Assembly: GCA_001776275.1 (NCBI GenBank)
Contig: MFAQ01000041.1
Coordinates: 54,057 to 82,658, forward strand
Source of the DNA: Candidatus Collierbacteria bacterium RIFOXYD1_FULL_40_9
GTDB lineage: Bacteria; Patescibacteriota; Microgenomatia; UBA1400; MFAQ01
DNA: 28,602 nt
Reading direction: 5' to 3'
The notes under the pieces were generated by a model. That model ran no database searches and was not told the origin of the DNA. It saw only the letters and a list, made by a program, of their open reading frames with translations. Within the stretch, counting starts at the first letter, position 1, and every line of letters starts with the position of its first letter. A program made the translations under genes and the position numbers. Shown piece by piece: positions 2,992 to 3,456 of this stretch.

Positions 2992-3213
2992 TTAGGGGGC
3001 GACTACTTTTGGAATAAGTCCATCAAGATGCTTATTATCCAGAGAATTAGTCTGAATATCCGCAATATTCGGATTATCATATGTAGCCACCCCCATGAAC
3101 GGAGTGCTTAAGCTAACGGTATCGCAAACGATTCCTGCACCTAAACAATTTGTATTCATAGGGTATAAAGCTAAGAAGCATTTTAGTAATAAGTGATTAC
3201 TCTCGTTGGCCAC
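2992..3213 (-). CDS. Possible small ORF (73 aa, GTG start) inside the RT leader
   Basis: Track ORF ending 11 nt before the HTH start; its GTG lies inside the 3210-3221 helix. No homology recognised. Confidence 0.2.
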   Translation of the reverse strand: MANESNHLLLKCFLALYPMNTNCLGAGIVCDTVSLSTPFMGVATYDNPNIADIQTNSLDNKHLDGLIPKVVAP

Positions 3214-3456
3214 ATGACTCTCAATTCCAAAAAGGAAGCACTCCGTGAACCTAAAGAGTCATGCGGACTAATTAAGTAATCACAAGACAAACAGAAAATT
3301 AGAAACATAGAAACTGTCAGTAGGCAGCTAAGTATCCAATTGCGTGTGTCGGGGCGAATAGTTCCCATCATACGTACCATAGACGGGTGTTCAGACGATA
3401 AATCGTCAAAAATATATGGCATTGAAGAATATGTTACCGATAACTTCTCAAGGTAC
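2995..3456 (-). ncRNA. Candidate structured leader/ncRNA of the HTH-RT operon
   Basis: Helices 3083-3094/2995-3006 (12 bp, 2 G-U), 3255-3266/3210-3221 (12 bp, 1 G-U), 3275-3283/3193-3201 (9 bp) and 3236-3246/3099-3109 (11 bp). The G-U pairs work only on the minus strand. Promoter at 3463-3491. Confidence 0.55.
3183..3422 (-). CDS. Possible small single-TM protein (79 aa from ATG 3422) inside the RT leader
   Basis: Internal part of track ORF 3183..3509 lying downstream of the predicted TSS; hydrophobic stretch WILSCLLTVSMFLIFCLSCDYLI. No homology recognised. Confidence 0.25.
   Translation of the reverse strand: MPYIFDDLSSEHPSMVRMMGTIRPDTRNWILSCLLTVSMFLIFCLSCDYLISPHDSLGSRSASFLELRVMWPTRVITYY

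What the first reader, a model, noticed from the sequence alone, without database searches (positions are those of the whole stretch)
2995..3283. Leader RNA with strand-specific G-U helices and a crossing (pseudoknot or switch) helix
Seen on the minus strand: GGGGGUGGCUAC/GUAGUCGCCCCC (12 bp, 2 G-U) closing a domain with two small hairpins; a long hairpin GUGAUUACU/AGUAAUCAC plus CCGCAUGACUCU/AGAGUCAUGUGG (1 G-U); and ACGGAGUGCUU (3246-3236, in the loop of that hairpin) perfectly complementary to AAGCACUCCGU (3109-3099). All three wobbles would be A-C mismatches on the plus strand, which supports selection at the RNA level. Inference: this is the RT template/scaffold, with a pseudoknot or two alternative folds.
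Basis: partly seen in the sequence, partly recalled or inferred. Interest (0 to 1): 0.8.

Follow-up and report, generated by a model that had tools for sequence, protein, structure and literature searches.

The report
Retron hybrid RNA locking a toxin
The folded "leader" is most of the hybrid RNA of a type VI-like retron (an anti-phage reverse-transcriptase system) in a tiny-genome groundwater bacterium; its conserved helices, including a true pseudoknot, hold shut a hidden 25-codon toxin-like gene, a variant of a system first described in 2025.

Summary
Observation confirmed. All four helices lie at the stated minus-strand coordinates. The region folds far better than shuffles (z = -5.0). Each helix is kept by compensatory changes in 35-47 homologous loci.

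Identity: the stretch is the 3' two-thirds of a ~465-nt hybrid RNA. It sits upstream of an XRE-HTH gene and a divergent retron-type RT (PADLOC RT_VI and HTH_VI).

New points:
- The 12-bp helix pairs the Shine-Dalgarno sequence of a conserved 25-codon amphipathic peptide gene (3080-3003) with that gene's stop codon.
- The peptide gene is nested in the +1 frame of a 55-codon leader ORF (3159-2992). Only the openness of this ORF is conserved. It ends 11 nt before the SD-less HTH gene.
- The "crossing" helix is a conserved pseudoknot. It ties the hairpin's apical loop to the 11 nt just upstream of that Shine-Dalgarno sequence.

The hairpin may be the RT template, but an upstream variable hairpin is an equal candidate. 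No transcript or msDNA data exist.

Closest known: the Retron-Vpa2 and Retron-Sen3 hybrid RNAs. There the key repeats are direct and the toxin is a single ORF.

This scan reached the same reading earlier on other CPR genomes (e1-2056215, e1-1040175, e1-799685, e1-853942).

Verdict: new variant of a known kind.

The parts
3463..3491 (-). Promoter (TTGACA, 17 nt, TAACAT) with a 23-bp palindromic operator over the spacer and -10 box. The RNA is inferred to start near 3456.
   Evidence: Promoter scan. The same promoter and palindrome lie 475-600 nt upstream of the HTH start in 27 of 56 homologous loci.
3444..3451 (-). P0 5' strand (UUGAGAAG). It pairs with the linker at 3178-3171 and closes the ncRNA part, so it is a candidate a2-like arm.
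   Evidence: Cognate against non-cognate duplex energy is -10.2 against -7.6 kcal/mol (median rank 0.18, 23 loci), with visible covariation (GGACGGUU/AACCGUCC, GGCUAGUU/AACUAGCC and others). Support is moderate.
3417..3439 (-). P2alt 5' strand. This upstream segment can pair with 3228-3207 (the 3' side of the hairpin loop plus the P2 3' arm) and so competes with P2.
   Evidence: Window duplex -17.2 kcal/mol. Cognate -12.5 against non-cognate -8.4 (median rank 0.14, 11 of 23 loci below 0.1). Support is moderate.
3364..3407 (-). Two small stem-loops, SL-a (3407-3394) and SL-b (3387-3364). They are msr-like and conserved in position.
   Evidence: Folds and alignment of the 5' regions of 16 loci. 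Read by eye, not tested statistically.
3286..3350 (-). Variable hairpin VH. Its length and sequence differ between loci. It is the alternative candidate for the reverse-transcription template (msd).
   Evidence: Its tip differs with compensation even between the window and its closest relative L067.
3193..3283 (-). Long hairpin P1 (3283-3275 / 3201-3193) plus P2 (3266-3255 / 3221-3210), with a 33-nt apical loop.
3236..3246 (-). Crossing (pseudoknot) helix, 5' strand, in the apical loop of P2.
   Evidence: Cognate -16.0 against non-cognate -8.35 kcal/mol (median rank 0.000). Pair types at one position: GC 17, CG 13, UA 5, AU 2.
3171..3178 (-). P0 3' strand (CUUCUUAG) in the linker, 12 nt upstream of the ORF-A start codon.
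2992..3159 (-). ORF-A, a 55-codon leader ORF (ATG 3159, TAA 2994-2992). It runs through the pseudoknot 3' strand, both arms of H1 and the whole toxin ORF, and ends 11 nt before the HTH ATG.
   Evidence: It is open over the 25 codons upstream of the SP start in 44 of 47 loci, against 4 of 47 for each other frame. An in-frame ATG is present in 46 of 47. Its codons 2-10 are not conserved as peptide (BLOSUM -0.69, no codon periodicity). A gene caller called its equivalent in L067.
3099..3109 (-). Crossing (pseudoknot) helix, 3' strand. It lies inside ORF-A, 4 nt upstream of the H1 5' arm.
3083..3094 (-). H1 5' arm. It is also the Shine-Dalgarno-like GGGGGUGG of the toxin ORF.
   Evidence: Mean anti-SD duplex energy is -6.6 kcal/mol before SP (32 of 46 loci at -6 or lower), against +0.5 before HTH.
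3003..3080 (-). SP, a 25-codon ORF (MIIRILRIFRLILWIISILMDLFQK) in the +1 frame of ORF-A. It is the toxin-like amphipathic peptide.
   Evidence: A related 20-31 aa peptide is present in about 49 of 52 loci. Codon-position entropy is 1.40/0.82/1.72. BLOSUM62 is 1.56 per site, against 0.05 in frame A. Against L067 there are 8 synonymous and 3 nonsynonymous codon changes. GRAVY 1.53, muH 0.63, charge +3.
2995..3006 (-). H1 3' arm. It contains the SP stop codon UAG (3005-3003) and the last codons of ORF-A.
2657..2980 (-). XRE-type HTH gene (107 aa) with no Shine-Dalgarno sequence of its own.
   Evidence: Pfam HTH_3 2.2e-13. PADLOC HTH_VI 3.4e-13. SD analysis.
1687..2664 (-). Reverse transcriptase (325 aa, catalytic FVDD). 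It overlaps the HTH gene by 8 nt.
   Evidence: PADLOC RT_VI 6.9e-27. Catalytic D120, D213 and D214 are invariant in 34 homologs. The AlphaFold model has pLDDT 94.8 and its best PDB folds are retron RTs at TM 0.65-0.69.

Best explanation
The stretch is the 3' two-thirds of a ~465-nt hybrid RNA (template-bearing ncRNA plus toxin mRNA) of a type VI-like retron. The retron belongs to a large, divergent RT/HTH clade in CPR (Patescibacteria) bacteria.

Anatomy:
- A conserved operator-bearing promoter (3491-3463) starts the RNA near 3456.
- The apical loop of P1/P2 pairs with the 11 nt just upstream of the toxin gene's Shine-Dalgarno sequence. This is the pseudoknot.
- Four nucleotides further on, the 12-bp helix H1 pairs that Shine-Dalgarno sequence with the toxin gene's own stop codon.
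- The toxin gene (SP, 25 codons, a cationic amphipathic helix) lies in the +1 frame of a 55-codon leader ORF. Translation of this ORF, not its peptide, is conserved. It ends 11 nt before the SD-less HTH gene, which in turn overlaps the RT gene.

Mechanism (inferred):
- At rest, H1 plus the pseudoknot keep SP untranslated. Ribosomes on the leader ORF feed HTH and RT by termination-reinitiation.
- On infection, reverse transcription either runs through the hairpin loop, or the DNA product anneals to that loop. Either event breaks the pseudoknot.
- Leader-ORF ribosomes then melt H1 more often or for longer. SP is made in excess, as in hok/mok coupling, and the cell stops growing.

Shown here: the helices, their covariation, the two reading frames, and the gene families. 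Inferred: the transcript ends, which hairpin is copied, the translational coupling, the toxicity of SP, and the trigger. The confidence of 0.8 is for the identity and the lock architecture; I give the particular trigger chain about 0.3-0.4.
For: Gene families: PADLOC RT_VI 6.9e-27 (next best family 1e-15) and HTH_VI 3.4e-13. The RT model's best PDB folds are retron RTs. The best profile hits in the PDB are the Ec86 and Ec83 retron RTs.

RNA: z = -5.03. All four helices covary. There are compensatory changes in P2, the crossing helix and H1 even against the 90%-identical leader of L067. P0 and the promoter set the length at about 465 nt, the size reported for the Vpa2 hyRNA (bioRxiv 10.1101/2025.10.22.683967 read).

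Toxin frame: codon-position entropy 1.40/0.82/1.72, BLOSUM 1.56 against 0.05, and 8 synonymous/3 nonsynonymous changes against 1/10 for the same bases read in frame A. SP has a strong Shine-Dalgarno sequence and HTH has none.

Leader ORF: open in 44 of 47 loci against 4 of 47 for each other frame, with an ATG in 46 of 47 and a gap of 4-20 nt to the HTH start in 43 of 46 loci.

[quoted passage not shown] In Sen3 an inverted repeat flanks SP and HTH acts as antitoxin.
Against: No RNA or msDNA data exist for this organism. All 10 sequencing runs that hold the stretch are DNA metagenomes.

The RT lacks the retron hallmark motifs: it has RNHVQAA instead of NAxxH and HLG instead of VTG. It is only 21% identical to the canonical type VI RT in the same genome. 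Its RT_VI score is 92 bits, against 200 bits for that canonical copy.

No priming G can be named. Support for P0 and P2alt is only moderate (median ranks 0.18 and 0.14).

The complementarity here is between RNA strands, so the msDNA cannot anneal to the riboregulator as proposed for Vpa2. The step from a broken pseudoknot to an open H1 has no direct support, and no conserved alternative pairing was found.

A type VI entry from a CPR bacterium (Candidatus Levybacteria) gave no detectable ssDNA in E. coli (Khan et al. 2025, as cited in bioRxiv 10.64898/2026.04.27.721009).
Confidence: 0.8

Rival explanations
1. This has the same system identity, but the region of the finding is only riboregulator and coding sequence. 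Here the template is the upstream variable hairpin VH (3350-3286). The priming duplex is P2alt (3439-3417 with 3228-3207). P1/P2 is then the 'off' fold that hides the a1-like arm, so that RT initiation is gated by a P2/P2alt switch.
For: The order would be canonical for a retron: a2-like arm, small conserved stem-loops, long variable stem-loop, a1-like arm. P2alt covaries (cognate -12.5 against -8.4 kcal/mol, median rank 0.14) and excludes P2. VH varies in length and sequence as msd stems do, whereas P1/P2 is conserved in sequence like a recognition or regulatory element. In Vpa2, reverse transcription is repressed at rest.
Against: P2 itself is better supported than P2alt. P0, not P2alt, is the outermost closing helix, and it sits next to P1/P2 as an a1 arm would. 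No priming G can be identified.
Confidence: 0.35
2. This is a 'constitutively armed' reading, as for Retron-Sen3. SP is made all the time at a low rate, each time a leader-ORF ribosome opens H1. It is neutralised after translation by the HTH protein, which is made from the same coupling event. The helices then set the SP:HTH ratio and scaffold the RT-HTH-RNA complex. They do not act as an msDNA-operated switch.
For: SP and HTH both depend on the same upstream ORF. Sen3 works through an HTH-SP toxin-antitoxin pair independent of RT and ncRNA (abstract and sections read). No conserved alternative fold that would open H1 was found.
Against: This reading does not explain why the template-side loop is tied by 8-14 covarying base pairs to the nucleotides next to the toxin's Shine-Dalgarno sequence in almost every locus. 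H1 is strong (-21 kcal/mol on average), which argues for tight repression.
Confidence: 0.3
3. This is not a retron. The leader would be a type I toxin-antitoxin-like or attenuator-type structured mRNA that regulates an HTH-RT operon, and the RT would copy some other RNA or act without this leader.
For: The retron motifs NAxxH and VTG are not met. The RT is a distant outlier. No msDNA evidence exists. The fold-back lock and the overlapping ORF resemble hok/mok, which needs no RT.
Against: The leader, HTH and RT are co-inherited in at least 50 loci. RT_VI and HTH_VI are the best models by a clear margin. Retron RTs are the closest folds. The size and layout match published type VI hybrid RNAs. 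No antisense promoter or antitoxin RNA was seen.
Confidence: 0.08
4. The helices arise by chance, or the complementarity is a by-product of coding constraints.
For: Part of the region is coding, and AT-rich sequence gives many short complements.
Against: z = -5.03. Cognate partners beat non-cognate partners while control segment pairs do not. Double compensatory changes occur in nearly every pair. There is a G-U over A-C excess.
Confidence: 0.01

Closest known systems
Retron-Vpa2 hybrid RNA (type VI retron, Vibrio parahaemolyticus; Zhang et al., bioRxiv 10.1101/2025.10.22.683967)
   Same: Both have a ~470-nt structured transcript that joins the retron ncRNA to the coding sequence of a small toxic protein, followed by HTH and RT genes. 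In both, the toxin's ribosome-binding site is buried in a helix and long-range inverted repeats tie the 3' part back to the ncRNA part. Both have a short conserved motif in a template-side loop that is linked to the riboregulator.
   Different: - In Vpa2 the loop motifs are direct repeats, so the cDNA is proposed to anneal to the riboregulator. Here the two segments are complementary as RNA and form a pseudoknot.
- The Vpa2 SP is a single 55-aa ORF. Here the conserved peptide has 25 codons and is nested in the +1 frame of a 55-codon leader ORF.
- This RT lacks NAxxH and VTG.
- This HTH has no Shine-Dalgarno sequence and follows the leader ORF stop by 4-20 nt.
- Nothing here is tested experimentally.
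Retron-Sen3 and the cl2075 type VI retrons (Garcia-Rodriguez et al., bioRxiv 10.64898/2026.04.27.721009)
   Same: Both have the SP-HTH-RT order and an ncRNA closed by terminal inverted repeats. Both have a long internal stem-loop with a variable part, and the SP ribosome-binding site lies in a stem. In both, a long-range pairing reaches from the ncRNA to the region at the SP stop codon. Both toxins carry an amphipathic C-terminal helix (muH about 0.6 in both).
   Different: The Sen3 SP has 79 aa in a single frame. Its IR2 lies downstream of the SP stop and pairs with the 3' end of SL3. Here the arm at the stop codon pairs with the SP Shine-Dalgarno sequence, and a separate helix links the hairpin loop to the riboregulator. 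The host lineages differ (Proteobacteria against CPR).
hok/mok/sok of plasmid R1 (type I toxin-antitoxin; from established knowledge)
   Same: Both have a short hydrophobic toxin ORF nested in an overlapping upstream ORF whose translation would open the toxin's start site. In both, a long-range fold-back pairing keeps the toxin's Shine-Dalgarno sequence closed.
   Different: No antisense RNA antitoxin is seen here, and control is expected from an RT, its HTH partner and the cDNA. There is no sequence relationship. The resemblance is functional only.
Canonical type VI retron in the same genome (L069 = G000:C43:3131-6862)
   Same: It has the same gene order: a small protein (66 aa), HTH (97 aa) and RT (290 aa), behind a strongly folding leader (z = -5.15). 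The small protein's C-terminus (..SSLILEILKR) resembles the 25-aa peptide in character.
   Different: Its RT scores 199.7 bits on RT_VI and has NAKIH and VTG. It is only 21% identical to the window's RT. Whether it has a nested ORF was not examined.

Membership tests
Type VI retron (Mestre et al. 2020 classes as implemented in PADLOC) | The RT belongs to the type VI RT group. | tested here: met
   PADLOC RT_VI 6.9e-27, 92.4 bits, covering profile positions 2-274 of 279. The next family scores 55.6 bits. This is weak beside the canonical copy in the same genome (199.7 bits).
Type VI retron (Mestre et al. 2020 classes as implemented in PADLOC) | A Cro/C1-type HTH gene lies directly upstream of, or overlapping, the RT gene. 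| tested here: met
   HTH_VI 3.4e-13 and Pfam HTH_3 2.2e-13. The overlap is 8 nt. The same arrangement is found in 56 of 66 related loci.
Type VI retron (Mestre et al. 2020 classes as implemented in PADLOC) | A small accessory protein (SP) gene lies upstream of HTH and belongs to a known SP cluster. | tested here: inconclusive
   Small ORFs are present in the right place (55 and 25 codons). There are no hits in Pfam, NCBIfam or PADLOC. Sequences of the published SP clusters were not available for comparison.
Type VI retron hybrid RNA (hyRNA, Zhang et al. 2025) | One structured transcript holds the ncRNA and the SP coding sequence, with the SP ribosome-binding site sequestered. | tested here: inconclusive
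   The predicted structure, the sequestration of the Shine-Dalgarno sequence and their covariation are met. The transcript itself could not be observed because there are no RNA runs.
Retron (general) | The RT-dependent msDNA is made from the msd part of the ncRNA, primed from a 2'-OH of a conserved G next to the a1/a2 duplex. | not testable with these tools
   Candidate closing duplexes P0 and P2alt were found. No priming G can be named, and there are no cDNA data.
Retron (general) | The RT has the retron-specific motifs NAxxH and VTG. | tested here: not met
   The window RT has RNHVQAA and EHLGI at these places. The clade consensus keeps HLG. The canonical copy L069 has NAKIH and VTG.
Retron (general) | The RT has the retron-type fold, and the catalytic aspartates are intact. 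| tested here: met
   The model has pLDDT 94.8. The top Foldseek hits are the retron Ec86, Eco2, Eco7, type I-A, Eco8 and Ec83 RTs at TM 0.63-0.69. D120, D213 and D214 are invariant.
hok/mok-type type I toxin-antitoxin | An antisense RNA antitoxin acts on the overlapping ORF. | not tested
   I did not look specifically for an antisense RNA. The scan of both strands found a single weak plus-strand promoter-like site at 3009-3038, no more sites than in shuffled sequence. The locus is not filed in this family; the resemblance is functional only.
Rfam RNA families | The sequence matches a curated covariance model. | tested here: not met
   No family matches at gathering score over the window. At E <= 1 the only hit is a chance snoRNA match at 14 bits.

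The most novel reading that the evidence does not exclude
The retron uses consumption of its own template as the switch. The loop of the RNA that the RT copies is base-paired to the toxin's translation-control region. Copying that loop, or coating it with msDNA, physically unties the lock on a toxin gene that is overprinted inside a leader ORF. This cis-acting RNA-RNA logic is the inverse of the cDNA-RNA annealing proposed for Retron-Vpa2. It is combined with hok/mok-style translational coupling that also feeds the HTH antitoxin/repressor and the RT.
Probability: 0.3. Interest if true: 0.8.

Novelty: new variant of a known kind. Interest (0 to 1): 0.6.

Why it matters
Type VI retrons are the one retron class in which the DNA product switches the toxin on rather than off. 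How reverse transcription is coupled to toxin translation is still an open question in the two 2025-2026 preprints.

This CPR clade has at least 66 loci in species-representative genomes and more than 200 proteins in the metagenome catalogue. It offers a compact natural variant in which the coupling can be read from the sequence. A covarying pseudoknot joins the template-side loop to the nucleotides next to the toxin's Shine-Dalgarno sequence. A second covarying helix closes that Shine-Dalgarno sequence onto the toxin's stop codon.

The locus also shows that the ORF which gene callers pick here (55 aa) is probably not the effector. The conserved protein is a 25-residue peptide in another frame. 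This matters for annotating retron effectors and, more generally, small overprinted toxin genes.

Every element can be tested with mutate-and-rescue constructs in E. coli.

Tried and rejected
- Rfam search at gathering score and at E <= 1: no family matched.
- Conserved alternative partners for the crossing strands, the H1 arms, the ORF-A start and the HTH start: no cognate-specific signal. I therefore do not call the crossing helix a switch.
- Local nested pairing seen in the MFE (ORF-A AUG with 3100-3095, and 3109-3105 with 3143-3147): it is not conserved.
- Pairing of the P1 5' arm with the tail after H1 (GUGAUU with AAUCAC at 2991-2986): present in several loci but not significant (median rank 0.46).
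- Longest exact direct or inverted repeats between the 5' and 3' halves: no cognate excess overall. This rejects a Vpa2-like direct repeat between the template loop and the riboregulator, and the Arg codons inside SP vary freely.
- Programmed frameshift from ORF-A into SP: considered and set aside. SP has its own ATG (or TTG) and a strong Shine-Dalgarno sequence in nearly all loci.
- ORF 3183-3509 (108 aa): no family hit, and it crosses the promoter. I treat it as spurious.
- The GC-rich domain downstream of the RT (1374-1650) as the retron RNA: it is conserved only in the closest relative and repeated at 19291-19399, so it belongs to the mobile element and not to the retron.
- IMG/VR scan for the RT clade: no relatives found.
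- First covariance model with the automatic structure kept only 7 pairs and was replaced by one built with the P1+P2 structure.
- Complex prediction for HTH with SP: not run, because the peptide is shorter than the 30 residues the tool needs.
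Full report
**1. The observation**

On the minus strand the four pairings are at the stated coordinates:
- GGGGGUGGCUAC 3094-3083 with GUAGUCGCCCCC 3006-2995. I call this helix H1.
- GUGAUUACU 3283-3275 with AGUAAUCAC 3201-3193 (P1).
- CCGCAUGACUCU 3266-3255 with AGAGUCAUGUGG 3221-3210 (P2).
- ACGGAGUGCUU 3246-3236 with AAGCACUCCGU 3109-3099 (the crossing helix).

The 320 nt from 3300 to 2981 fold to -96.9 kcal/mol. Shuffles give -70.5 +/- 5.2 (z = -5.03). No Rfam family matches.

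**2. The surroundings**

Directly downstream on the same strand lie three genes:
- A 107-aa XRE-type HTH gene (2980-2657; Pfam HTH_3 2.2e-13; PADLOC HTH_VI 3.4e-13).
- A 325-aa reverse transcriptase that overlaps the HTH gene by 8 nt (2664-1687; PADLOC RT_VI 6.9e-27, with the next family at 1e-15).
- A large serine recombinase.

Upstream lies an SNase-family gene.

An AlphaFold model of the RT (pLDDT 94.8) is closest to the retron RTs Ec86, Eco2, Eco7, Eco8 and Ec83, at TM 0.63-0.69. The catalytic aspartates are invariant in 34 homologs.

The RT is nevertheless an outlier:
- It has RNHVQAA where retrons have NAxxH, and HLG where they have VTG.
- It is only 21% identical to a second, canonical type VI RT found on another contig of the same 810-kb genome. 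That copy scores 199.7 bits on RT_VI and is preceded by a 66-aa small protein gene and an HTH gene.

**3. Relatives**

The RT has more than 200 relatives in the protein catalogue, almost all from CPR/Patescibacteria metagenome bins.
- 66 loci were fetched from species-representative genomes.
- 56 of them have the HTH gene directly upstream of the RT.
- One closer relative (L067; RT 81% identical) shares the SNase-leader-HTH-RT synteny. Its leader is 90% identical to the window's, and the differences include compensatory changes in P2, in the crossing helix and in H1.

**4. Covariation**

I compared duplex energies of each locus's own partner segments with those of other loci's segments:

| Helix | Own partners (kcal/mol) | Other loci's partners | Median rank |
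|---|---|---|---|
| Crossing helix | -16.0 | -8.35 | 0.000 |
| H1 | -20.9 | -12.0 | 0.022 |
| P2 | -15.9 | -7.8 | 0.022 |
| P1 | -10.0 | -5.3 | 0.087 |

For the crossing helix, 38 of 47 loci fall in the best tenth. Control segment pairs show no difference between own and foreign partners.

RNAalifold on 39 leaders chooses exactly the crossing helix and H1. All 18 of its pairs carry double changes.

| Helix | Canonical cells | Partners slid by 1-3 columns | Shuffles (max) |
|---|---|---|---|
| Crossing helix | 85% | 27-51% | 72% |
| H1 | 87% | 24-55% | 79% |
| P1+P2 (covariance model, 35 sense rows) | 85% | 33-55% | 73% |

In P1+P2, 16 of 19 pairs have double changes. G-U cells outnumber A-C cells everywhere. 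The hairpin model scores 61 bits on the RT-sense strand and 26 bits on the other strand.

**5. Pseudoknot or switch**

With both crossing strands kept single, the rest of the region folds to -84.0 kcal/mol. Adding the 11-bp duplex (-18.0) gives -102 before any pseudoknot penalty, against -96.9 for the nested fold. The two states are therefore near-isoenergetic in this sequence.

The local pairings that replace the crossing helix in the nested fold are not conserved. No other cognate-specific partner was found for either strand. I therefore read the crossing helix as a conserved pseudoknot. The 33-nt loop leaves 8 and 14 nt on either side of the paired 11 nt.

**6. What H1 encloses**

Two overlapping ORFs sit just upstream of HTH in the homologous loci.

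*Frame B, the SP gene.* This frame encodes a 20-31-aa peptide in about 49 of 52 loci. Its consensus is M..(K/R).LRI(I/L)..I(I/V)RI(L/I).D(I/L).. In the window it runs from ATG 3080 to TAG 3005-3003 and gives MIIRILRIFRLILWIISILMDLFQK.
- Over 19 ungapped codons in 45 loci, the entropy by codon position is 1.40/0.82/1.72.
- The mean BLOSUM62 score is 1.56 per site, against 0.05 and -0.94 for the other two frames.
- Against L067, the 11 differing codons are 8 synonymous and 3 conservative in this frame. The same bases read in frame A give 1 synonymous and 10 nonsynonymous changes.
- The peptide is hydrophobic, cationic and amphipathic (GRAVY 1.53, muH 0.63, charge +3). This resembles the C-terminal helix described for type VI SP toxins.
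- Its Shine-Dalgarno-like GGGGGUGG is the 5' arm of H1, and its stop codon lies in the 3' arm. H1 is therefore a lock on this gene.
- The SP start has a strong anti-SD match in 32 of 46 loci (mean -6.6 kcal/mol).

*Frame A, the leader ORF.* In the window this is ATG 3159 to TAA 2992 (55 codons). It is one base behind frame B.
- Over the overlap its openness is automatic, because its third codon position is the T-rich second position of SP.
- In the 25 codons upstream of the SP start it is open in 44 of 47 loci, against 4 of 47 for each other frame.
- An in-frame ATG lies 58-79 nt upstream of the SP start in 46 of 47 loci. Several Saccharibacteria loci show a clear AAGGAGG before it.
- Its peptide is not conserved: BLOSUM -0.69, flat codon-position entropy, and 0 in-frame stops against 25 and 42 in the other frames.
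- It ends 4-20 nt before the HTH ATG in 43 of 46 loci. HTH has essentially no Shine-Dalgarno sequence (1 of 46 loci).

I read ORF-A as a leader ORF whose translation matters. It would couple ribosomes to HTH, and through the 8-nt overlap to the RT. It necessarily traverses the pseudoknot strand and both arms of H1. This is the hok/mok logic, known from type I toxin-antitoxin systems.

**7. The RNA extends upstream of the finding**

The promoter with its 23-bp palindrome (3491-3463) recurs 475-600 nt upstream of HTH in 27 of 56 loci. The RNA therefore starts near 3456 and is about 465 nt long to the ORF-A stop.

The upstream 170-250 nt show these features:
- A 5'-end segment that pairs with the linker just before ORF-A. 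I call this P0. In the window it is 3451-3444 with 3178-3171. Own partners give -10.2 kcal/mol against -7.6 for foreign partners (median rank 0.18).
- A segment that can replace the P2 5' arm. I call this P2alt. In the window it is 3439-3417 with 3228-3207. Own partners give -12.5 against -8.4 (median rank 0.14).
- Two small stem-loops (3407-3394 and 3387-3364).
- A hairpin of variable length and sequence (3350-3286).

P0 and P2alt have moderate support only.

**8. Comparison with what is published**

Zhang et al. (bioRxiv 10.1101/2025.10.22.683967) describe the Retron-Vpa2 hybrid RNA:
- It is about 470 nt long and joins msr-msd to the SP coding sequence.
- The SP ribosome-binding site and start codon lie in stem-loops, and inverted repeats link the 3' end to the first arm.
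- RT, HTH and the hyRNA form a complex.
- msDNA is repressed at rest and is required to derepress SP.
- Conserved 7-nt direct repeats sit in an msd loop and a riboregulator loop. The cDNA is proposed to anneal to the riboregulator through them.

Garcia-Rodriguez et al. (bioRxiv 10.64898/2026.04.27.721009) describe Retron-Sen3:
- The ncRNA has terminal inverted repeats.
- A long-range pairing flanks SP.
- SP is produced constitutively and is neutralised by HTH.
- They note that a Candidatus Levybacteria type VI entry gave no ssDNA in E. coli.

The locus here has the same gene order, the same RNA size and the same principle of a locked toxin inside the retron RNA. It differs in four respects:
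- The loop-riboregulator relation is RNA-RNA complementarity, forming a pseudoknot, rather than a direct repeat.
- The conserved toxin is a 25-codon ORF overprinted in a leader ORF.
- HTH is SD-less and follows the leader ORF stop.
- The RT lacks the two retron hallmark motifs.

I found no description of these features in the papers I could search. Earlier agents of this scan reached the same reading on other CPR genomes.

**9. Mechanism**

Shown here: the helices, the two reading frames, the gene families and the conserved promoter.

Inferred:
- At rest, H1 and the pseudoknot keep the SP start closed while the RT and HTH sit on the RNA.
- On infection, either reverse transcription proceeds through the hairpin loop, or accumulated msDNA anneals to that loop. 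The msDNA would carry the same sequence as the riboregulator strand and so would compete with it.
- The pseudoknot opens. Leader-ORF ribosomes then melt H1 and SP is translated.
- The amphipathic peptide stops growth.

I give about 0.8 to the identity and lock architecture and about 0.3-0.4 to this particular chain of events.

Two open alternatives remain. In one, the upstream variable hairpin is the template and P2/P2alt gates priming. In the other, SP leaks constantly and HTH neutralises it, as in Sen3.

**10. Limits**

No transcript, cDNA or phenotype data exist. P0, P2alt and the small stem-loops rest on fewer loci. Some loci come from bins labelled as other phyla, which may be binning errors. 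The phylogenetic position of the RT clade relative to reference type IV-VI RTs was not computed.

Noticed in passing
L069 = G000:C43:3131-6862 (same genome, another contig): A second, canonical type VI retron: a 66-aa small protein (901-1101), a 97-aa HTH (1175-1468) and a 290-aa RT (1465-2337). The RT has NAKIH and VTG and scores 199.7 bits on RT_VI. The leader folds strongly (z = -5.15). So two very different type VI-like systems sit in one 810-kb genome.
   Followed up: partly
window 3463-3491 (minus strand) and 27 related loci: The promoter, with a palindrome of the form TTATACGTTTCGTATAA across its spacer and -10 box, is conserved in sequence and position (475-600 nt upstream of HTH) across distant loci. 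It is the likely operator of the conserved HTH protein.
   Followed up: partly
window 1687-2664 (RT protein): The RT clade has invariant cysteines (C143, C155, C156 within KCGCS...LCCVP.GPKGSG) between the finger and palm motifs. This may be a metal site or an insertion specific to the clade. The motifs HLG (in place of VTG) and LARGFATS (in place of LPQG) are also fixed.
   Followed up: no
window 1374-1686 and 19291-19399: The structured GC-rich stretch after the RT stop is conserved only in the closest relative (96% over the 108 nt held). About 110 nt of it are repeated at 89% identity in inverted orientation 17.7 kb away. This fits ends or attachment sites of the recombinase-borne island rather than a part of the retron.
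   Followed up: partly
window 2986-2991 against 3278-3283: AAUCAC, just after the ORF-A stop, repeats the P1 3' arm and could pair with the P1 5' arm (GUGAUU). Similar matches occur in several loci, but the cognate test is not significant (median rank 0.46).
   Followed up: yes
window 3534-4199 and L067:1609-2145: An SNase-family (staphylococcal nuclease-like) gene lies just upstream of the retron promoter, both here and in the closest relative. Other loci were not checked for it.
   Followed up: no
loci L002, L011, L018, L028, L032, L038, L040, L041, L043: Some related loci come from bins labelled Planctomycetota, Micrarchaeota, Gammaproteobacteria, Bdellovibrionales or Bacteriovorax. This is either mis-binning of CPR contigs or horizontal spread. 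No relatives were found in IMG/VR viral contigs.
   Followed up: no
window 3038-3061 (inside the SP gene): A hairpin of the type UAUUCAGA...UCUGGAUA around the Trp codon recurs in the subclade whose peptides carry IWII (for example AUCCAGAU/AUCUGGAU and CAGAC/GUCUG). This suggests extra RNA structure inside the coding region. It was seen by eye only.
   Followed up: no
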